This document shows positions 1,398 to 64,000 of a stretch of DNA of 64,000 nt, one piece after another; position 1 is the first letter of the stretch, and every line of letters begins with the position of its first letter. The notes under the pieces were generated by a model. That model did no database searches, was not told where the DNA came from, and was given only the letters and a program-made list of their open reading frames with translations. Made by a program: the position numbers and the translations under genes. This DNA is from Octopus vulgaris (Eukaryota), in contig OX597822.1 of NCBI GenBank assembly GCA_951406725.2, forward strand, positions 92,814,001 through 92,878,000, given 5' to 3'.

Positions 1398-2721
1398 ATT
1401 GTTGGTATTTTGTTGTTAATTTTGAATGTTTCAATTGTATTTCTTCGTTGTGTGTGACTTGTGAAAGGGAAAAGTAAAAATAATTTTAAAATATTAAAAA
1501 AAAAAGATATTTTGTGAATATTACAGCTTAAAGAGTGTAAAGAAAAGATATTTTTAAAGATGAGTGATAGGGGATGATTTAGGGGGTGTGGAGGAGGAGG
1601 AGGTGGTAGTCTGGTAAACAGGACAGTAAGTCAATTGTCATGACTTCTTCCCCCACCCCAGTATGTGTGTGTGTGTGTACACACATTGAAAACAAAACAA
1701 AAATATAGCAAATTCTGATAAAAAAAAATAAAAAAAACCAAAGTCATTTTGAGGGAACTGTGTAAAGAAAAATGCTCCCCCCCTCCAAGAACCCCCCCCC
1801 ACCCACCGAAAACAATCAAAATACAATTACAAAATAAAGATCTATGGAACTGCTTTAAGCTTGAGGCATGCCACTGGTTTGCATGGCTTCAACTGTTTTT
1901 ACTGATAGGAAATTGTGTTTGTCAAGAATCGACTTGTCTCAACTTGAACCCACACTAGGCTTGTTATAGTGTGTGTGTGTGTGTGTTTTGGCTGCCTGCC
2001 TGTGGCTGCATAGTTAGCAGCTGTGTATGTGTGTATGTATCTCTTTATCTCTGTATGTATTTATGTATCTGTCTGTCTGTCTATCAATTTATGTAAGTAT
2101 GTATGTATCTATCTATTTATGTGTGTATGTATGTATGTATGTATGTATCTATCTATCTATCTATGTATCTATCTATGTATCTATCTATCATCTATCTGTC
2201 TGTCTGTCTGTCCATCTATATCTGTCTGTCTGTCTATCTATCTATCTGTATATATCCATCTGTCTGTCTGTATCTATCTGTATGTGTGTGTGTGTATGAT
2301 GGACTCTCCTGTTGATGACATATGAGGTCCAATTTATTGTGGAATGACCTGCACAAATGATTTGTTTATAGTGATCAAATATTTGAGCTGTACCTTACCT
2401 AACTCCATCCATCGTGGAATACATTAACCCCAATGCTTAACGGATAATTATTTTATTGCCTGTGAAGGGATGAAAAGCACAATTAACCTTGCCGGAATTT
2501 GAACTAAGTTTGTAAAGATGGATGAATTGCCACTAAGAATTCTGTCCAGCCTGCTAACGATGCTGCTAATTTACCTTGTATTGGGAATCAATTAGAGATT
2601 TCTCCAAACGTTTACTGGTTTGCTCAGTCAGGGAATCGAAATAGGTTATTCAATGGTTAATATAGAAATCCAGTAATAATTCAGGTAATGCTAATGCTAC
2701 TTTGCCATACATAATCCTTTA

Positions 2722-3139: not shown

Positions 3140-3790
3140 GGTGGCGAGCTGGCAGAATCGTTAGCATGCTGGATGAATTGCTCAGCCGTATTTCGCCTGT
3201 CACTATGCTCTGAGTTCAAGTTCCACCAAGGTCAACTTTGCCTTTGATCCTTTCGGGGTCAATAAATGAAGTACCAGTGAAACATTTGAAGATTGATGTA
3301 CATTGACTAGTCCCTTCCCACAAAATTTCAGGCCTTGTGCATATAGTAGAAAGGATTATTATTATTATTATTAAAGCAGTGAGCTAGCAGAATCATTAGA
3401 ACGCTGGACGAAACTCAGTGGTATTTTGCCCCTCGCTATGTTCTGAGTTCAAATTACGCCAAGGTTAACTTTACGTTTCATCCTTTCATGGTTGATAAAA
3501 TAAGTACCAGTTATGCACTGGGGTTGATGTAATCGACTTGATCCCTTCCCCCAAATTTGAATCCTTGTTTTTCCAGTAGAAAAGATTATTATCATTATTA
3601 AGGTGGTGGGCTGGTAGAATTGTTAGCATGTTGGATGAAATGCTTAGCAGTATTTTGCCTGAGGTTAACTTTGCCTTTCATCCTATGGGGACGATAAATT
3701 GAGTACCAGTGAAACATTGGGATCAGTGTAATTGACTAGTCCCATCCCTGCAAAATTTCAGGCCTTGTGCCTATAGTAGAAAGGATTATT
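3138..3790 (+). mobile_element. Three head-to-tail MetaSINE-like (family B) copies separated by (ATT)n
   Basis: Unit AAGGTGGCGAGCTGGCAGAATCGTTAGC...GAGTTCAAATT...ACTTTGCCTTTCATCCTTTCGGGGTCGATAAA..AAGTACCAG...GGCCTTGTGCCTATAGTAGAAAGGATT. The central block resembles the Meta domain as I recall it. Confidence 0.8.
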
Positions 3791-6330: not shown

Positions 6331-6590
6331 AGGCAAATTCAAAAACATTATGCAAACCACCCATTTTCTTTCCAGCACATGGACAAATATAATGCAGTTA
6401 AGTTAGCTAGCCATGTATGGAATTTGAAGACCATCTCCACTCTACATACAATTAAATGGAGAATCATGGAGAAATCTAAGCCATATGTTAATGTCTCTAA
6501 GAAATGCAAATTATGTATAGCAGAAAGATTTCATATTCTTCTTAGATCCAATAATTCCTACACACTGCTTAATTCCAGGTCTGAAATATA
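6331..6590 (+). pseudogene. Penelope-like (Naiad-type) GIY-YIG endonuclease C-terminal fragment
   Basis: ORF 6379-6660 contains LASHVWNLK..IKWRIMEKSKPY..SKKCKLCIAERFHIL..LLNSRSEI, collinear with LSKLIWDLK..LEWLIL..PY..KKFCLLCNSE..LVN of the 21599-23410 ORF. Confidence 0.8.
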
Positions 6591-6592
6591 TA

Positions 6593-6759
6593 TATTTCAT
6601 TTAGTGAAAGATAAATATCATTTAATGCACATGTTATTTTATAATAACAGCTACAAATAATTCCTAACCAAAGAGTCACTGACATTAGACAAATTTGTAT
6701 AATGTGCCTTGTGTCTCCAGCAGGGCGGCGTCATTGAAGGCTAAAACGAAGCGCATTGT

Positions 6760-6817
<58 letters not shown>

Positions 6818-7103
6818 TCTAATGTGTACAGTATTTAAGATAAGAGCTTCCAATAATTTCTTGTCATAGCGACACTGTGATTATGCAGATTTACATAATG
6901 TGTTTTGTGTCTCCAAATAATCTTCAGGCTCATAGCACTTGGTTCTATTTGAAAGCCAGTAGACTTGAAGATTGTCTGGAAACACAAGGCACATTATACA
7001 AATTTGTCTAATGTCAGTGTCTCTTTGGTTAGGAATTATTTGTAGCTATTATTATAAAATAACATGTGCATTAAATGATATTTATCTTTCACTAAATGAA
7101 ATA
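6593..7103. repeat. ~128-bp inverted repeat (6593-6720 / 6976-7103) around (TA)n and a degenerate hammerhead
   Basis: Arms are near-perfect reverse complements. Minus strand 6931-6844 reads GAGC-CTGAAGA-long stem II-GAAA..GCTC. Confidence 0.8.
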
Positions 7104-7148
7104 CATTTTTTTTTTTTTTTGTTGATCTTACCTTAATAGATCAATAAA

Positions 7149-10683: not shown

Positions 10684-10980
10684 ATATCAGTGGAACTGGT
10701 GTTCTCATCTTGATTGTTGATATTTCACTACTCTTCAACTGATCATGTATTCTCCAGCCATCTTCAGGTGTCTTGTGTTGAACTTGGTCGTTGTATCTAA
10801 ACCTGAAAATATTTATGAAGGACATGTAATTTACTGATGCCACAAAGTTCAGCATTTAAATGGAGATCGGATACAACAACCAAGTTCACCACAAAACACC
10901 TGAAGAAGGCTGGAGAATACAACTGCTGAAATGTTGTGAAATCAGCAATCAGGATGAGGACACCAGTTTGACTGATGTAT
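10684..10980. mobile_element. Foldback element with a degenerate minimal hammerhead in each arm
   Basis: 10684-10797 is the reverse complement of 10870-10980. Right arm CAC-CTGAAGA-A-GGCTGGAGAATAC..GAAATGTT-GTG, then GATGAGGACA as in the 14815 and 63170 elements. Confidence 0.7.
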
Positions 10981-13290: not shown

Positions 13291-14814
13291 GATTAATAAT
13301 GATGATGATGATGATAATAATAATAATACAAATAATAATAATAATGATTTCTTTATTAAGTACTAAGGGCTTACAATGAGATTGGGGAGATTACAATAGA
13401 ATGTAGAATTATACGAAAGTGTGTGAACAGGAAAATAACAGTAATAATAAATTTGAACAATGAATAATTCCCCCAAAGAGGGAGAATTCCATGGGCTCCT
13501 CTGGGTGAAACCTCATAAAACCATAGTTATAATAATATTAAGGGAGTACGAATGACAATGGAATGCATCTAGAAAGTTCCCCTCTAATGTACAAGTCCGG
13601 GTAAGGTTGTTTATGGAAGACCAGCAGTCTCTCATATCCACCAGCCTCCCCTCTCCACACCACCGGGGGATGTGGTGTGGTGTGGAGTGGCATTGATGGT
13701 GCTTTTTATGTGCCACTAATAATAGTGGACCAACACAGTCAGTGAGGTACGCAGTTTGGGCTAGTCCCGTAGAGATGACGAAATACATAGTGAAAATGAG
13801 GGACATAAGTTTCCATTCAGCAAATCCACTCCCAAGACAAAGTGTGCCATGCTGTGGGACTGAACTTGAAACCATGTAGTTGGGAAACAATCTCCTTAGT
13901 GACACAAGAAGCGTGTCTATACCTAATAGCCACAATCATTCAATTTAAAAACAAACAAAAAAAAAGTTTTTTTAGTCTCTTTAATTAGGCAGCAACATAA
14001 TCACACCCTCTTGTGTGCACACACATGTACACACACTTGCAACTGTCCTGTATACATGCATACATGCATATGCACACACGCACACGCATGTACACAGTTC
14101 TGACACTTTTATTGTGTTTGCTCTTGTTAATTTTATTGCTTGGTGATGTTGGTAGTTATTGGGTGCAATTGGTTGTTGTGTGTATGTGTGTGGGTGAGGA
14201 TTTGTTTAGCCTCTGATCTAGAGCACTGGGGTGGAGGCTATAATCAAAGAACCATTCTATTGAGGACATTATTCATACTATGTCTCCTTTGTAACCCTTT
14301 TTTAAAAATAAGACTGTAGGGTGTGATTTGAGAGATTAAGCTGCTGTTTCTAGCACGTTAAATGGCTGCCCTCCTCCTCCTCCTCTTCCTCTGTTTTAAC
14401 ATCCACTTTTCCATGCTGGCATGGGTTGGACGGAGTGTGTTGAGGTGGATTTTTCTACAACTAGATGTGCCCTTTCCATAGCCAATCCTCACCTGTTTCC
14501 AAGCAAGGTAGTATTCCACACTCCCCCACGGCCAGATGGGTTTTCACGAAAATCTGTGAACAAGGAACATCAATCACTTGCATGACGGTGACACTTGTTT
14601 ACAGCTATCATGTGAAATCAAGACAAGGAGACAGTAAAACAACACACATGTGCATGTGCACACACACACTCTCTCCCCCCCACACACACTCACACATGAT
14701 TGGTTTCCACACAGTTTCCATCGACCAAATTCTTGCAAAAGGCATTGGTCAGCCTAGGGCTATAGGAGAAGAAACTTGCCCAAGGTACTCATGCAGTGCG
14801 ACTACCATGTAGAA

Positions 14815-15285
14815 TAATACAGTTCTTATATTATTTAAGAAATGAGGAATTATTTACATTATTTACATTTGACAGATATTTGTCCTCCTCTTGTTTGTTG
14901 TTAACACAACATCTCAGCTGGTATACCCTTCAGCCTTCATCAGGTGTCTTGGGGAAATTTTGAACCTGGGTTCTCATTCCTAAGGTATTTTTGATGTTGT
15001 TATTATTATTATTATTTTTATTATTATTCAGGTCACTGCCTGGAATCGAAATCGGAATCTTGGGGTTAATAGTCTGCGCTCTTAACCACTATGCCATATA
15101 CCTACAGGCATATGGCGTAGTGGTTAATGATAACAACATCGAAAAATACCTTAGGGATGAGAACCCAGGTTCGAAATTTCCCCAAGACACCTGATGAAGG
15201 CTGGAGGGTATATCAGCCAAAATGTATAAACAACAAACAAGATGAGGACAAATATCCGTCGAATGTAAATAATATAAATAATGTA
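14815..15285. mobile_element. Palindromic tRNA-head + hammerhead element, copy 1
   Basis: Arms are reverse complements about a centre near 15100. TSD CCATGTAGAA (14805-14814, 15286-15295). Right arm GACAC-CTGATGA-A-GGCTGG..TCAGCC; most of the right tRNA head is deleted. Confidence 0.9.
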
Positions 15286-16006
15286 CCATGTAGAAGTTTA
15301 TTCATTTATTTGTAGTGTTGAGGCTGATGATTGTGTTATGTGAACAAATTTATTTCATCACTTAACGTCCATTTTCCATGCTGGTATGGGTTGGACGGTG
15401 CTACAGGGGTTGGTAAGCCGTAGGCTTACGCTAGGCTCCAGTTGACTGTTTTGGCTTGGTTTTTGTAGCTGGATGCCTACAATATTTTCTACAAAACAGC
15501 CAGCAGTTCCTGCCACACTAGGCAACCCATGCCAGCATAGAAAACGGATGTCAAAAAATGATGGCACACCAGCAAATATAATTAGTGATAATGGTGGTTG
15601 AGGTTACAGTCATTGCAAGGTCTTAGTTGTCATGGTACATACTTAACAGTTTTGTGGTTGATCTGTCCCAGCTCAGCCTTGTTTCAGCTGATCTATGAAC
15701 ACGTCATCTTTTATCAATGTGCAAAGGAACAAAATTGCCAAATATGTCCTTTTAGGTGACTCGAGGGAGATGTTGCTGCTATTTCTAGCAAATCAAATGA
15801 CTACATAGAGGCACTTGCATTGGTGGTAGTATTGTTGCAACTTAGCCCAGAGAATGCTCTGACACAGTAGATCTGTGATCCACAAGCTTTCTAATTGTGA
15901 CCATCTTGGTCTAATTTTTTCAGACATAGTACCTCAGATTTTCTATTATTCATTGGGAGGAGCGGGTTCAAGTCCTGTGGCTATCTAATGGCAACTTGTT
16001 TCATAG

Positions 16007-35491: not shown

Positions 35492-37039
35492 GTGAGCTTT
35501 GCATTTCTGGTTCTCATGATTTTATTGATACATATACTCTTCACCTTTCATTTGTTCCAGTCATTGGACTGTGGCCAAGCTGGGGCACCAGCTCAAAGGA
35601 TTTTTAGTCAAACAAATTGACCTCAGTAATTATATCTTTTTTTGAAGTTGTGGGTTTCTTTTGCCAAAACACTGAGTTTTATGGAGACATAAACAAACCA
35701 ACACCGTTTTTTATGCAGTGCAGGAAGCAACACACTCTCATACACACAGACACATGACAGGCTTCCACACAGTTTCCATCTACCGAAATTCACTCACAAA
35801 GGCATTGGTCAACCCAGGGTCATAAAATAAAGCACTTGGAGTGGGACTGAACCAGAAGCCACATGATTGCAAATCAAGCTTCTTAACCATACAGCTAGGC
35901 CTGCACCTAAAAGAAAGTTTTTTTTTTTATTTCTGTGGAAAAGAGGCAGTGCTCATGATCTCTCACAGATATCATAAGAATACTTGTTACTGAGTCAACT
36001 CTGCTAAAGGCTGAAAGTAACCTAGGTGGTGGTGGTGGTGGGTGGGTGGAAACTGGGGAATGGTTTAAGTCTAAGCCAGTGGTTATCAACCCTCTTTCTC
36101 CTCTGGACCCCTTTGATTCCCTTTTTACTCAAATGGACAGTCATAGCCATTTGATGTTTAACAAAAAAACCTCATATTTTTATATTAAAAATCAAAAGCA
36201 AATCAAGATGGAAATCAAAATGGAAATTGTAGTTCAAATTCTGCCAAGGTCGACTTCGCCTTTCATTCTTTCACGGTCGATAAATTAAGTACCAGTTATG
36301 TATTGGGGTCAATCTAATTAGCTTGCTCCCTCCCCCCAAATTTCAGGCCTTTTACCTGTAGAAAAGATTACTATGAAGCTGGCAGAAACATTAGCATGCT
36401 GGGCGAAATGCTTAGTGGTATTTTGTCTGCTGCTACGTTCTGAGTTCAAATTCCGCCAAGATCGACTTTGCCTTTCATCCTTTCGGGGTCGATTAAATAA
36501 GTACCAGTTACGCACTGGGGTTGATATAATCGACTTAACCCATTTGTCTGTCCTTGTTTGTCCTCTCTGTGTCTAGCCCCCTGTGGGTAGTAAAGAAATA
36601 GGTATTTCGTCTGTCTTTATGTTCTGAGTTCAAATTCTGCCAAGGTCGACTTTGCCTTTCATCCTTTCAGGGTCGATAAATTACATACAAGTTACATACT
36701 GGGGTCGATGTAATCGACTGGCACCCCACACCCCACAAAATTTCAGGCCTTGTGCCTAGAGTAGAAAAGAATATTTGTTTTGTCTATAAATTTTTTGAAT
36801 TTCATTCCCAGGTTAGGTTAATTTTAGGGTGGGATGGGCTAGAATTGGTATCATTTTGTTTAGTAGTTTATTACCAGAATAATAAGTCATTAAGTGCAGG
36901 GAAATATCCTGCCTGGTGTTCTTAGGGTTATGCCAAGTCATTGTTCCTGGATTGATACATTTTTTTATATTGACCCTGCGAGTATGTGTAACTGCCATTG
37001 GCTCATCCAGGTGTACAGTTATTAGTAATGGGACTCTGG

Positions 37040-39170: not shown

Positions 39171-41339
39171 CATACACACGTGTGCTGATACACACATTCA
39201 TGCATCATTGTCAATTAAATCTGTTTTCTGTGCTGACATGGGGTAGGGTCATGATATACAGTGCATATATATTATATGTGTAATACATGCATATATATAT
39301 ATATTATCACCTCATCTTCAGTTAAAGTTCGTTATACATGCTAGCATGGGTTGTTTGACAGTTTGACATGAGCTGGTAAATCAGGGGACTGTTTCCTGCA
39401 TTTTAATGGTGATGACATTGGTGCTAAGTGTTTCCCTTGGGTTATGTCAGTGATATGGAGAGGCAGAGAAGCTTGCATGCATGGCTAGTGATTGGTCTTC
39501 GAGAACAAAAAAAAATGGGAGGCAATAAGCTCCTTCTTTTCTTGAAACACTTGGAGCCCCTATGGACCCCTCCCCCCAACTCCTAAGATACCGTCATCTC
39601 CACTGTTACTGCCATGGGCACCCACACTAACCACTGCAACCATTCCTTCTATTTTGTGCTGGTAATTAATTTAGCACCACCATTACCACCACTATTACTG
39701 CTTCTACTACTACATCTATAACAACACCATTAGAAATACTGCTGCCGCCGCCACCGCCACCACTACTTTCACTGCATTAGTAATACTACTACTACTGCTG
39801 CTGCTACTACTGTAATGACAAACATGAGTGTTTATTACCACTAACACCACCACCACCACCACCACCACTACCTCTGTCAAAACAACTGCAGCATGATGAT
39901 GCTGAGGCTGATGATGATTGTTATCATCACTGTACACAGCTGAATGAAGAGTTGAGGCCTTGGGCAATGAACAGAAATCCACGTTAATCTTCTGCTTTAA
40001 GTGGTATACACACATACACACACACATGTATGTATACACACTGTGTATACTTGTAGGTTAATCTCTTGTGAAACCCACTTACAGCTGTTTAGTTGTGCAT
40101 CAACTTATATTAAGCAGATCAGGGATGAAGTCCTCCTCATCCCACCTGGATAGGATGGTAGTCTGTAGCAAGTGATTTCCCATCTCTTCATGATTTCTCT
40201 TCACAGCAAGGTAATGTGAAGTTAAACATGTGGAGTTCAGGGTTTTGCTCCCATGGCAGATACACCATGGAATACACACCTTAAAACCTGAACTTCCTAC
40301 CTCTTACCTCTCTCCATCCATCACTCAGTCAATCAATTATACACATATTCCTTTTGAGTGTTGGACCTCACTGAGGCAAAGTGGCTGAGTTCTTTTTGAG
40401 TGTTGGGCCTCACGAAGGCAAAGACCAAGACCTTTGGCATTATATCGTGCTTGGGAAGAAGACCCGTCAAGTCAAGCAAAATCATGGTCGTGGCAGATAC
40501 TGGTGTCACACAAATTGGCACCCTGGCCGGTGGTATGTAAAGGTGGCGAGCTGGCAGACACGTTAGCACGCTGGGCGAAATGCATAGCTGTATTTCGTCT
40601 GCCAATACGTTCTGAGTTCAAATTCTGCCTAGGTCGACTTTGCCTTTCATCCTTTGGGGATCGATAAATTAAGTACCAGTTACGCACTGGGGTCGATATA
40701 ATTGACTTGATCCGTTTGTCTGTCCTTGCTTGTCCCCTCTGTGTTTAGCCCTTTGTGGGTAGTAAAGAAATAGGTATGTAAATGCATCCTGGTGTCATGC
40801 AAATGGCACCTGTGCTTGTGGCATGTAAAAGCACCCGTTATACTCTTGGAGCGGTTGGTGTTAGGATGGGTATCCAGCCATAAAAAAACATGCCAAATCA
40901 GACTGGAGTCTGGTACAGCCTTCCAGCATGCCTGCCCAAACCGTCCAACCCATGGACAACAGACGTTAAATGATGATGATTTTGAGGATGATTCATTAAG
41001 ATCCATACAGACTAAGAGAAGGTGTGTGGCCAAGGTATTTGGCTCACGATCATAAGGCTGTGATTTTGATTCTCATCAGTGCATCGTGTCCTTGGCCAAG
41101 ACACTTTAATTCTCATTGCTGCAGTCCACTCAGCTGGCAAAAATAAGAAGTACCTGTAATTCTGTGTCGTGCTGAATCTTCGTGAGATCTACGTTAAGGA
41201 TATGTATTTCTGTGAAGTTCTCAGCCACTAGCATATTACTTTCATGAGCAAGCCGTTCCGTTGATCAAATCAACTGAAACACTTGTTGCTATAACTGACG
41301 TAGTGCCAGGCAAGCTCAGATGAATGTACCAAAGATTGA

Positions 41340-41998: not shown

Positions 41999-42397
41999 TA
42001 TATTTTGATTATTTAAAAGAAAAAGTTCTTATCCAGTCTTGGCACATTTTGACATTATACAATGATCAGAAGCATTAAGAACATCCAATCTGGCATCTGT
42101 CTTGGGTATCTGTGGGGATCCTGGTGGATAATGTGCAAATATAGCAGATAGGAAGAAAAATGGAAATAAAAGATCAAAGTCCTGATGTAGGACCATGCAG
42201 TGGTTCTCGTGGCTTCTGATCTTAACTGATTGGAAGTGTTATCATGTAAATTGTTTTGTCTTGGTATAAAAGATGGGCTACAGCAAATATTCTGTTCAAT
42301 ACCATAGATTTGCTTGTCAGTTGAGCAAGTCCCTTGGTGGCTGACGATGTGTGCGTCTCTGATCACGGGTAGAAGTCATGAGAGACCATCATAGCCG

Positions 42398-42952
42398 TTA
42401 CGTTCTGAGTTCAAATTCCGCCGAGGTCGACTTTGCCTTTCATCCTTTCGGGGTCGATAAATTAAGTACTAGTTACGCACTGGGGTCGATATAATCGACT
42501 TAATCCGTGTGTCTGTTCTTGTTTGTCCTCTCTGTGTTTAGCCCCTTGTTGGTAGTAAAGAAATAGGTATGTTAAATACCTTAAAACAAAAATTCTTAAA
42601 TTAAAAATTGTCCCTGCCTCAAATCTGTGTAAATCCCCACTGCTTTTCACAATTGAATCATTTAAATGTTGCCAATCATTTTTAAACCCTTGTGGCAAAT
42701 AAGTTATTTTTATAACTATTATCATTATTATTATTATTAGGTGAGCTGGCAAAATTGATAGCATGCTGAGTTAAAATGCTTAGCGGCATTTTGTCTGTCC
42801 TTTTAATTCTGAGTTCAAATTCAGCTTGTGGCCAACTTTGCCTTTCACCCTTTCGGAGTCGATAAATTAAGTACCAGTCAAGTACTGGGGTCAATGTGAT
42901 TGATTGTCCCCCTCCCCACAAAACTTCAGACCTTGTGCCTATAGTAGAAAGG

Positions 42953-47484: not shown

Positions 47485-47964
47485 CATAGTTGTTGCTGTT
47501 ATTGTTGTACAGTGTCTGTTGTATCTTCTTGTTATTATGTTGTTGTTAGTTCTCCCTGCTGCTACTGATGTTGTGATGTCAACCTTGTTCAAGCAAAGCT
47601 GTGATCAAAGACATTCCAACCATGACCAACCTATTTTTTCTCTATGTGTAGGAAGGCAGGATTACATTAGCATCTCTGTCCTTTTTCTAAGATGGCAGGG
47701 TGTGATTTGAGGCTGATTTGGCTGCTATTTCAAGCAGAATGAGTGACCTTGAAGAGCTTCTCACATTAGTTTGTGTCATTGTTGTATGTTGGTGATTTTA
47801 TTTGTTGTTGTTGTTGCTCATCTTTATCAGTCCTGATCTCCTCCAATACAGTTTCAGTCAGAAGTATCCCAGTTGTGACCACCTAGTCTGTATATCACAC
47901 ATAGTGCATCTTGGACTACTCCACCAAATTTGTCATTTTAAAGATTTAAAAAAAAAGAAAAAAA

Positions 47965-48044
47965 TTATTCAGGTCACTGCCTGGAATTGAACTTGTAATC
48001 TTGGGGTTAGTAGCTCATGCTCTTAACCACTATGCCATATGCCC
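47965..48044 (-). mobile_element. Solo tRNA-like head of the palindromic hammerhead element
   Basis: TTATTCAGGTCACTGCCTGGAATTGAAC..TCTTGGGGTTAGTAGC..CTCTTAACCACTATGCCATATGCC matches about 63369-63448. Confidence 0.8.
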
Positions 48045-61888: not shown

Positions 61889-63150
61889 AAGGCGCCGAGC
61901 TGGCAGAATCGCTAGTACACCAGGCAAGATGCATAATGGCATTTTGTCCAACTTCACGAACTGAGTTCAAATTCCACTAATATCTACTGCCTATCAACTT
62001 TTTAGGGTGAATGAAATAATTACCTGTTGATCACTGGTGTAGATGTCCCCAACTAGCCCCTTCCTCCCAAAATATCAGGCCTTGTCCCTATTTTAGATAT
62101 GATTATTATTATCATTAATGTGAGCTGGCAGAATTGTTAGCATGCTGGATGAAATGCTGAGCGCTTTTTTGCCTGTTACTACATCCTGAGTTCAAATTCC
62201 ACCAAGGTCAACTTTGTTTTCCTCTTTCGGGGTTGATAAAATAAGTATCAGTTGAACACTGGGGTCAGTGTAGTCGATTCACCCCTACCTCCTCTTGTGG
62301 CAAAAATTGGAAATAATTATTATAATTAAGGCAGTGAACTGGCAGAATCGTTAGCACACGAGGCAAAATGCTTGGTGGCATTTTGGCGTTTTGGTATATC
62401 TTTTATATGTTGAATTCAAATTCCGCTGAGGTTGACTTTGTTTTTCATCCTTTCGGAGTCAATAAAACAAGTATCCGTTGAGCACTTACCCCCTCCCTCG
62501 AAATTGCTGGCCTTGTGCCAAAATCTGAAACCATAATTTTTTATTATTGAATGAGAGAGCAGCGCATGCCATCAAAGTGATGCTGGGGTACAAATATACG
62601 AAGCCCAGTATACCCATCATGACTACCCATCTGATAAGTGTACAACAGGTGCATGCATCACAACCGCCCGAAATTGCTGGCCTTGTGCCAAAATTTGAAG
62701 CCATTATTATTAAGTGGTGGGCTGGCAGAAGTGTTTGTCTTAGACAAAATACCTTGCAACATTTCATCTGGTTTTACAAACCTGAGTTCAAATGCTGCTG
62801 AGGTCAACATAGCCTTTCATTCTGTCAGGGTCAATAAAGTAGGTACCAATTAAATACTGGGGTTAATGTTATCAACTAGGCCCCCCCCCATTTCAGGCCT
62901 CGTGCTTATATTAGAAAGGATTATTTTTATTATAAAGGAAGTGAGCTTGCAGAATCATTCATGTGCTGGGCAAAATGTTTCCTGACATCATTTCTATCAG
63001 GTTGATTTTTGCCTGAAGTTGATTTTTGCCTGAAGTTGATTTTTGCCTTTCCCCTTTTTGGGGGTCAGTGAAATAAGTGCCACTTAAACACAGGGGTTGA
63101 TGTAATTGATTAAACCCCTTTCCACTACATGTGCCTAGAGTAGAAAGAAA
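61889..63150 (+). mobile_element. Head-to-tail array of about five MetaSINE-like (family B) copies
   Basis: GAGCTGGCAGAAT-like heads near 61897, 62123, 62336, 62720 and 62943, each preceded by (ATT)n. Confidence 0.8.
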
Positions 63151-63169
63151 TTATTATTGTTCTAATCTT

Positions 63170-63708
63170 ACAGTTCTATATTTAAGAAATGAGGAATTAT
63201 GTACATTATTTATATTATTTACATTTGACAGATATTTGTCCTCATCTTGTTTGTTGTTAACACAACATTTCAGCTGATATACCTTCCAGCCTTCATCAGG
63301 TGTCTTGGGGAAATTTCGAATCTGGGTTCTCTTTCCTAAGGTATTTTTCGATATTATTATTATTATTGTTATTCAGGTCACTGCCTGGAATCAAACTCAG
63401 AATCTTGGGGTTAGTAGCCTGCACTCTTAATCACTATGCCATATGCCTGTGGCATATCTATACATTGGATTACAGAAGCATATGGCGTAGTGGTTAAGAG
63501 CGCGGGCTACTAACCCCAAGATTCTGAGTTCAATACCAGGCAGTGACCTGAATAATGATAATAATATAGAAAAATACCTAAGGAATGAGAACTCAGGTTT
63601 AAAATTTCCTCCAAGACACCTGATGAAGGCTGGAGGGTATATCAGCCGAAATGTTATGTTAACATCAAACAAGATGAGGACAAATATCCGTCAAATGTAA
63701 ATAATGTA
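63170..63708. mobile_element. Palindromic tRNA-head + hammerhead element, copy 2 (both arms complete)
   Basis: Left arm to about 63450 mirrors right arm 63478-63708. TSD TTCTAATCTT (63160-63169, 63709-63718). A-box TGGCGTAGTGG, B-box-like GAGTTCAATACC. Confidence 0.92.
63615..63660 (+). ncRNA. Minimal type I hammerhead ribozyme (mirror copy on - strand at about 63259-63305)
   Basis: GACAC-CTGATGA-A-GGCTGG-AGGGTATA-TCAGCC-GAAA-TGTT-ATGTT; the left arm retains GTGTT, giving a full stem I. Confidence 0.8.
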
Positions 63709-64000
63709 TTCTAATCTTTATTATTATTTTATGTTTATGGAATAACTTTAACCTATATATGCCCCATAAAAAATTTCACTGTATTTCGATTAAATGTTAT
63801 GGTAAGCTTTCACAGTCTGGAAGAGAAGGACAGATTGCAACTGTTTGCTACGGGTGTTGACTTCCTACCCAAGCATTTCGTAAACCCAGTCAGATGCTTC
63901 CTGGCGAGTTCATGTCCAAACAAGCAGGAGACACAAAGGGGTGTATATGGGTTAAGCCTTCAGATTAAAACTAAAAATGATTTTCTAACCCCTGGTTCCC

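What the first reader, a model, noticed from the sequence alone, without database searches (positions are those of the whole stretch)
63170..63708. Palindromic mobile element of two divergent tRNA-promoter + hammerhead units
Seen: a ~540-bp foldback. Each arm, read outward from the centre, has a tRNA-like head (GGCATATGGCGTAGTGGTTAAGAGCGCGGGCTACTAACCCCAAGATTCTGAGTTCAATACCAGG, with A and B boxes and an anticodon-like stem-loop), a short (TAA)n, a minimal hammerhead (stem I GACAC/GTGTT, CTGATGA+A, stem II GGCTG/CAGCC, GAAA, vestigial stem III), and an AT-rich end. Only the left arm has an extra ~30-nt tail. A 10-bp TSD flanks the whole palindrome, and a second copy at 14815 has the same ends but a different TSD, so the palindrome is the mobile unit. 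Known: minimal hammerheads with palindromic loop III and inverted terminal copies are typical of Penelope-like pseudo-LTRs; Pol III-driven hammerhead repeats are known from Schistosoma SM-alpha. Inference: a non-autonomous Pol III ribozyme-SINE mobilised by a Penelope-like RT/endonuclease. I do not know of this bidirectional layout being described in cephalopods, but cannot check databases here.
Basis: partly seen in the sequence, partly recalled or inferred. Interest (0 to 1): 0.88.

Follow-up and report, generated by a model that had tools for sequence, protein, structure and literature searches.

The report
Penelope retrotransposon with tRNA-type promoter repeat
This hairpin is a decayed back-to-back pair of the end repeat of a very common octopus jumping gene, a layout such genes are known to leave; the unusual part is that the repeat starts with a tRNA-type promoter and the whole protein-coding element lacks that polymerase's stop signals, so it is likely read by the polymerase that normally makes only small non-coding RNAs.

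Summary
The foldback, tRNA-like heads, minimal hammerheads, one-sided tail and 10-bp TSD are real. The palindrome is not the mobile unit, and the arm is not a separate SINE. Each arm is the ~283-nt terminal repeat (pLTR) of an autonomous Penelope/Poseidon-type element (2.66-kb unit, 838-codon RT + GIY-YIG frame starting inside the pLTR). Inverted copy plus one-sided tail is the published PLE insertion signature; centres and truncation points vary, and only 9 of 59 copies picked without regard to layout are two-headed palindromes. About 33,000 loci (13,000-67,000), old and decayed. What I found no paper on: a tRNA-derived A/B-box cassette begins the pLTR; most arms stop at it (27 of 30; 28 of 33); an older sister family keeps both boxes; and the sense strand of the whole unit has no run of four T (about 4.7 expected; 0 of 24 long Penelope-type control ORFs are T4-free). 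This suggests Pol III transcription, perhaps of the coding RNA itself; untested. The scan noted this family before in this genome (e1-8669850, e1-9583789, e1-9536931, e1-9581514) and similar elements on other DNA.

The parts
63160..63169 (.). target-site duplication, left copy (TTCTAATCTT)
63170..63448 (-). long arm: complete pLTR with tail (consensus 1-283), 93% identical to family majority
63170..63209 (-). one-sided tail; in autonomous copies it is ORF sequence that runs on into the element body
63259..63304 (-). minimal type-I hammerhead, 11-nt core intact, loop-III palindrome lost by CpG decay; predicted cut after 63264
63388..63441 (-). left A box (63431-63441) and B box (63388-63396), both with substitutions at conserved positions
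63449..63477 (.). centre: remnant of the pLTR's 5' hairpin junction plus about 20 nt of filler with no source in the window or the element
63478..63708 (+). short arm: pLTR without tail (consensus 3-242), 91% identical to majority
63483..63536 (+). right A box (63483-63493) and B box (63528-63536), both fit the Pol III type-2 consensus (recalled consensus)
63585..63587 (+). ATG that opens the element's ORF in autonomous copies (frame closed early in this copy)
63615..63660 (+). minimal hammerhead, core intact, loop-III palindrome and first stem-I pair lost
63709..63718 (.). target-site duplication, right copy
14803..15295 (.). second insertion: 12-nt TSD, long arm 14819-15103 (-), short arm 15107-15283 (+) lacking most of the head
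47964..48043 (-). head-only fragment of the same family
10700..10962 (.). head-to-head pair of an older sister family with the same pLTR layout

Best explanation
[quoted passage not shown] Shown: the unit is head, (TAA)n, ATG, hammerhead, tail, then ORF (RT, GIY-YIG), stop, and head again; insertions carry 8-20-nt TSDs; one arm ends at a fixed tail end and the other about 40 nt earlier. Inferred: the element's RT/endonuclease nicks both target strands and primes two cDNAs at two internal sites of the RNA (as shown in vitro for the anole element PAc); both run to the RNA 5' end at the head, where a short self-complementary stretch (TGCCC-AC-GGGCA) lets them anneal, or they are joined at truncation points with filler DNA. 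Inferred: because promoter and priming site both lie inside the repeat, short RNAs starting at the head (from a downstream pLTR, a solo copy, or the first pLTR of a full-length RNA) give the many ORF-less copies, so the pLTR behaves like a built-in SINE. The hammerhead would cut only as a dimer and does not mark either end; the window copy is dead.
For: ORF link: 28 of 30; RVT_1, E 4e-9; tail in frame with ORF in L252; 838 open codons from the pLTR ATG in the majority of 59 segments; 16 of 29 5'-selected loci keep part of an upstream pLTR fused to the ORF; a 55%-identical 847-aa relative starts with a homologous hammerhead-coded peptide. Made at insertion: variable centres and truncations; of 148 arm ends, 76 at 281-283 and 61 at 236-257; TSD of 8 nt or more in 38 of 49 head-to-head insertions, mode 12, 10% in swapped-flank controls; 7 of 11 ORF-bearing foldbacks checked also have one; paired arms share subfamily variants three times more than shuffled pairs, 0 of 2000; no position of 193 separates 80 long from 59 short arms. 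Literature: PMC8557442, PMC3846280, PMC11167929. Pol III: 27 of 30 head-selected arms and 28 of 33 layout-blind arms that reach the head stop within about 13 nt of it; sister family keeps A- and B-box segments while the spacer differs; no T4 run on the sense strand of the 2.66-kb unit against 0 of 24 long control ORFs and 0 of 7 same-genome RT ORFs being T4-free; T4 runs in single copies (0.45/kb) match post-insertion mutation alone (0.39/kb).
Against: No transcript evidence: three RNA-seq runs cover the family equally in both orientations and show no place where many molecules begin or end. The T4 absence is one sequence: P 0.007 (base shuffle), 0.028 (synonymous-codon permutation), but 0.07 and 0.22 under first- and second-order Markov models; 6 of 43 control regions, all short or T-poor (1.8 or fewer runs expected), also had none; the sister family's ORF pieces were too short to replicate it (2 runs in 907 nt, 1.6 expected). 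The sharp 5' boundary could come from the hairpin rather than a start site; Adineta pLTRs without tRNA also begin with palindromes (PMC3846280). Centre asymmetry can also arise by deletion after insertion. L307 has ORF 3' sequence upstream of its 5' pLTR piece, so some templates read across or jump. Shared arm variants could reflect gene conversion. No intact ORF was seen in any copy examined.
Confidence: 0.75

Rival explanations
1. Ordinary Pol II-driven Penelope element whose pLTR carries an old tRNA-derived passenger; the short copies are plain 5'-truncated ends that pile up at the pLTR hairpin.
For: The D. virilis Penelope promoter is a TATA-less internal promoter like those of LINEs (PMC2377424, passages); a coding RNA normally needs a cap (general knowledge); pLTR 5' palindromes are known without tRNA; T4 absence is not significant under Markov nulls.
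Against: Arms stop at the head even when not joined at the hairpin; A and B boxes are the segments kept between two families; T4-free coding strand is not seen in 24 long controls.
Confidence: 0.2
2. One reading: a non-autonomous ribozyme SINE whose mobile unit is the whole two-promoter palindrome.
For: Full palindromes with TSDs exist; many junctions carry a short inverted stub of the head, which could be left by deletions in once-complete palindromes or by templates from palindromic sources.
Against: No shared centre; no arm-specific variants; 9 of 59 and 0 of 7 two-headed; same foldback on ORF-bearing copies; a transcript of the palindrome is one long hairpin that buries both ribozymes.
Confidence: 0.04
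3. A foldback DNA transposon or MITE with long terminal inverted repeats.
For: Long inverted arms flanked by a direct repeat.
Against: TSD length varies 8-20 nt; ends are asymmetric; arms are contiguous with an RT/GIY-YIG ORF.
Confidence: 0.01

Closest known systems
Penelope/Poseidon EN+ PLEs: Poseidon_Ac (PAc) of the green anole (PMC11167929, parts 1-2 of 4 read), Adineta Pen2a (PMC3846280, passages), D. virilis Penelope (PMC2377424, passages)
   Same: Single RT + C-terminal GIY-YIG ORF with CCHH and without the Neptune linker finger; ORF starts in the pLTR at the hammerhead; tail is ORF sequence; cut site to tail end about 94 nt here against 85-92 nt in PAc; inverted truncated copy, one-sided tail, palindrome at the pLTR 5' end, TSD about 8-15 nt.
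   Different: pLTR begins with a tRNA-derived A/B-box cassette; coding strand has no T4 run; solo and paired pLTRs outnumber ORF-bearing arms about 6-9 to 1; the one PLE promoter I read about is LINE-like.
Minimal hammerheads of metazoan PLEs (Cervera & de la Pena 2014, PMC4209133, parts 1-2 of 4 read)
   Same: Extra base before stem II, G10.1-C11.1, palindromic 15.2-16.2, short stem I; that paper already notes pairs on opposite strands 100-700 bp apart.
   Different: No tRNA cassette mentioned in the parts read.
Schistosome Sm-alpha / Sj-alpha hammerhead SINE-like repeats (review PMC6765202, passages)
   Same: Pol III promoter together with a hammerhead.
   Different: Those are tandem, non-coding and cut into monomers by the ribozyme; here the ends do not coincide with the cut site and the unit is part of a coding element.
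Cassandra, Helenus, Ajax (small-RNA-derived LTRs; PMC10886601, search listing and passages)
   Same: Small-RNA promoter inside a terminal repeat.
   Different: Non-autonomous LTR elements; this is an autonomous PLE.
Animal non-LTR retrozymes and non-autonomous PLE derivatives (bioRxiv 10.64898/2026.07.22.740005, parts 1-2 of 5; MRC1 in PMC8557442)
   Same: Short non-coding PLE-derived units with type-I hammerheads.
   Different: Head-to-tail arrays; no tRNA head described in the parts read; here dispersed head-to-head pairs.
Octopus SINEs OR1, OR2, OK (Ohshima & Okada 1994; paper not held)
   Same: tRNA-derived octopus repeats; the head here scores best with tRNA-Arg(TCG) among 25 distinct genomic tRNAs of 6 isotypes, barely ahead of Ala by z-score.
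   Different: OR1 and OR2 are cited as CORE-SINEs and this unit has no room for a CORE domain; sequences could not be compared, so identity with OK is not excluded.

Membership tests
Penelope/Poseidon EN+ PLE | single ORF with RT and C-terminal GIY-YIG endonuclease | tested here: met
   RVT_1 E 4e-9; endonuclease motifs read by eye, Pfam GIY-YIG gives no hit on L216; 838-codon majority frame; 51 long homologues
Penelope/Poseidon EN+ PLE | CCHH motif present, CX2-5CxxC linker finger absent | tested here: met
   against definitions in PMC8557442; Neptune-type ORFs of the same genome have the finger and are only 27% identical
Penelope/Poseidon EN+ PLE | placement in the clade by RT phylogeny | not tested
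   no named reference set available; pairwise identities only
Penelope/Poseidon EN+ PLE | pLTR partial tandem, inverted 5'-truncated copy, one-sided 30-40-nt tail, variable TSD | tested here: met
PLE minimal hammerhead | conserved core, stems I and II, palindromic 15.2-16.2 | tested here: met
   majority sequence; 53 of 92 arms keep the 11-nt core, 19 of 92 also the palindrome; window arms have lost the palindrome
PLE minimal hammerhead | self-cleavage as a dimer | not testable with these tools
   RNAcofold gave a non-hammerhead dimer fold; needs an assay
tRNA-derived SINE | 5' tRNA-related region with A and B boxes defining the 5' end | tested here: met
tRNA-derived SINE | head absent from the autonomous partner (only the 3' end shared) | tested here: not met
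   head is part of the autonomous element's pLTR, 28 of 30
tRNA-derived SINE | transcription by RNA polymerase III | tested here: inconclusive
   indirect signs only; RNA-seq uninformative
Non-LTR retrozyme / Sm-alpha type | head-to-tail arrays of monomers delimited by ribozyme cleavage | tested here: not met
   ends at 236-257 and 281-283, cut site after 189; no short tandem arrays seen
Foldback DNA transposon / MITE | fixed symmetric termini and fixed-length TSD | tested here: not met

The most novel reading that the evidence does not exclude
An autonomous, protein-coding retrotransposon transcribed end to end by RNA polymerase III from a tRNA-derived promoter in its own terminal repeat: its 2.66-kb sense strand has been purged of Pol III terminators, internal priming frees it from a defined 3' end, and the same repeat amplifies as a built-in SINE. 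It would need cap-independent translation of an 838-residue RT/endonuclease.
Probability: 0.4. Interest if true: 0.85.

Novelty: new variant of a known kind. Interest (0 to 1): 0.6.

Why it matters
The palindrome itself is a known Penelope footprint. The promoter is what matters: if Pol III makes the coding RNA, it would be a rare case of an animal Pol III message and a new way for an autonomous retroelement to be expressed, and it would show a route by which a PLE end becomes SINE-like without any LINE. The family also offers a simple test bed for the open question of how PLE inverted insertions form: a 283-nt template with a defined 5' end, two priming sites and a 5' hairpin predicted to anneal the two cDNAs. 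Tens of thousands of 200-550-bp inverted repeats are also a potential source of double-stranded RNA in a lineage with heavy RNA editing (not tested at this locus).

Tried and rejected
Rfam at gathering score on the window and at E up to 1 on ten loci with intact hammerheads: no tRNA or hammerhead match. ARAGORN on window and majority head: nothing. GIY-YIG family search found Neptune-type PLEs that do not share the 3' end; the partner was found instead from shared upstream sequence. A search with a distant Poseidon-type protein returned 30 loci all of this family, so no same-genome Poseidon control. A-to-I editing trace in copies: A>G 0.012 against T>C 0.014, none. Telomeric filler at centres: 3 of 57 head-to-head insertions but one exact genome-wide match for a strict pattern, so rare. 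The first A/B-box scan of controls failed its positive control and was redone: 0 of 30 controls with both boxes. The upstream-match count was faulty and was replaced. Sequencing-run search: no RNA holder listed; raw RNA reads laid on an ORF-bearing copy were uninformative; locus-specific expression and editing of the window copy remain untested. Repbase/Dfam could not be searched; Albertin 2015, Ohshima & Okada 1994 and Lunse 2016 were not held. The O. vulgaris repeat annotation (PMC13282606, part 1 of 3 and one supplement searched) lists 190 PLE and many unclassified SINE families without structures; its library files were not seen and may contain this family. Ten literature searches returned no listing describing a tRNA-headed pLTR or a Pol III-transcribed PLE.

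Full report
Observation. The window is G000:C9:92814001-92878000 of a 2.8-Gb genome; predicted Octopus sinensis and O. bimaculoides proteins contain peptide from this repeat, so the host is an octopus by inference. The foldback is real: arms 63170-63448 (-) and 63478-63708 (+), 88% alike, TSD TTCTAATCTT on both sides, fold z -35. A majority of 61 near-full arms gives a 283-nt unit: tRNA-like head with A and B boxes, (TAA)n, an ATG at 120, a minimal hammerhead cutting after 189, and a tail to 283. The intact hammerhead occurs exactly 721 times. The window copy is decayed: both arms have lost the loop-III palindrome, and only the right arm keeps consensus boxes. The second copy lacks most of its right head and ends differently. 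Sixty random 10-kb stretches held 7 loci, giving about 33,000 (13,000-67,000) genome-wide; copies are about 4.6% from the majority at non-CpG sites.

The palindrome is not the unit. All 19 palindromic loci compared have different centres. In samples chosen without regard to layout, head-to-head pairs are common (15 of 30 hammerhead-selected, 17 of 29 tail-selected, 5 of 7 random; lower bounds because arms more than 130 nt apart were not paired), but pairs with both heads and both ends are 4, 5 and 0. Of 148 arm ends, 76 fall at 281-283 and 61 spread over 236-257. TSDs of 8 nt or more flank 38 of 49 head-to-head insertions, mode 12, against 10% of swapped-flank controls. Paired arms share non-CpG variants at 0.0051 per site against 0.0017 in shuffles (0 of 2000; 48 pairs, which include the loci found with the palindrome as query); at site 158, 5 pairs carry the variant on both arms and none on one; no position of 193 separates long from short arms. 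So both arms come from the same source sequence. An inverted 5'-truncated copy and a 30-40-nt one-sided tail are the published signature of endonuclease-bearing PLEs (PMC8557442, passages; PMC3846280, passages), the tail matches two internal priming sites shown in vitro for PAc (PMC11167929), and opposite-strand pairs of minimal hammerheads were noted in 2014 (PMC4209133).

The arm is the pLTR of an autonomous element. Six arms shared sequence upstream of the head; it is the 3' end of an RT/endonuclease ORF. In 28 of 30 ORF-selected loci the head region follows the ORF end (8 are duplicates of one insertion, one is the query's locus). In L252 the tail continues in frame into the ORF N-terminus; 16 of 29 loci selected on the ORF 5' part keep a piece of upstream pLTR fused to it, and the two that reach the head (L301, and L317 with an insertion) start there. 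The majority unit is 2,663 nt with 838 open codons from the pLTR ATG. The endonuclease has the CCHH motif and lacks the Neptune linker finger, which points to Penelope/Poseidon; no tree was built. ORF-bearing copies carry inverted arms of many lengths joined at varied truncation points, 7 of 11 checked inside a TSD, which a fixed palindromic master cannot produce. No intact ORF was seen.

The unusual part. (1) The pLTR starts with a tRNA-derived cassette, best matching tRNA-Arg(TCG) in a limited set. (2) It is a sharp 5' boundary: 27 of 30 head-selected arms and 28 of 33 layout-blind arms that reach the head stop within about 13 nt of it; those that pass run on 45 to more than 800 nt into the ORF. 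(3) An older sister family, present in this window at 10700-10962, has the same order of ORF end, hairpin, head, hammerhead and tail, and keeps the A- and B-box segments while the spacer differs. (4) The sense strand of the whole unit has 13 T3 runs and no T4 run, where about 4.7 are expected; P 0.007 by base shuffle, 0.028 by synonymous-codon permutation, 0.07 and 0.22 under Markov models that absorb TT depletion. Seven other RT ORFs from this genome each have at least one; 43 Penelope-type families from metagenomes have 220 runs against 165 expected, none of the 24 longer than 1.5 kb is free of them, 6 short or T-poor regions are, and none of 30 has A and B boxes after the ORF. T4 runs in individual copies equal what later mutation alone predicts. 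Four T is the animal Pol III stop signal (recalled). These signs are indirect; RNA-seq reads from three raw runs cover the family in both orientations with no common start or end.

Mechanism. Shown: anatomy, ORF link, TSDs, two end classes, common source of paired arms. Inferred: two internally primed cDNAs per insertion; joining at the 5' hairpin TGCCC-AC-GGGCA, which gives the perfect centres seen in L006 and L150, or at truncation points with filler (telomere-type repeats in 3 of 57); Pol III initiation just upstream of the head; short RNAs or priming on the first pLTR as the source of ORF-less copies. I put the structural identification at about 0.9, a working Pol III promoter in the repeat at about 0.65-0.7, and Pol III transcription of the coding RNA at about 0.4; the need to translate an uncapped RNA whose hammerhead lies 70 nt after the ATG is the main difficulty.

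Novelty. The foldback is known; the element is a Penelope/Poseidon member by the features tested, and fails the SINE test that the head be absent from the partner. Ten searches gave no listing on a tRNA-headed pLTR or a Pol III-driven PLE; Repbase, Dfam, the O. vulgaris library files and three older papers could not be seen. Earlier notes of this scan reached similar readings on other copies; they are unchecked AI notes and not support. Verdict: new variant of a known kind, interest 0.6.

Noticed in passing
window 10700-10962: Head-to-head pair of an older sister PLE family (about 80% alike among copies, 1315 first-look candidates) whose pLTR also has a tRNA-like head with A and B boxes and a similar tail.
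   Followed up: partly
L061 2745-4763 (+) and about 2300-2670 (-), G000:C1:20000001-20010000: Young retrozyme-like array: 5.6 tandem 359-bp units, 98% alike, each with an intact canonical type-I hammerhead, plus two inverted units; a related hammerhead in L070.
   Followed up: no
L181-L184 (e.g. G000:C16:20834000-20842000): Recently active Neptune-type PLE family with many intact 781-codon frames and 99-100% identical direct repeats flanked by microsatellites.
   Followed up: partly
L003, L026, L030 centres: Telomere-type TTAGGG repeats as filler at the head-to-head junction, suggesting telomerase action on a free end; rare genome-wide.
   Followed up: partly
P0001, P0003: The pLTR-coded peptide appears at the N-terminus of predicted O. 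sinensis and O. bimaculoides proteins (a TNF-receptor-like protein by eye, and dystrobrevin beta): exonisation or gene-model artefact.
   Followed up: no
G000:C31 (L197, L199, L205, L206, L208, L210, L211, L214): One ORF-bearing insertion repeated at least eight times with shared flanks across a 12-Mb contig: a large segmental amplification.
   Followed up: no
window 3414-3547, 36411-36544, 40583-40716, 42376-42509, 62753-62886 and others: Several other abundant SINE-like families with B-box-like motifs.
   Followed up: no
window 6584-6720 and 6976-7112: 137-nt inverted repeat, 96% complementary, 255 nt apart.
   Followed up: no
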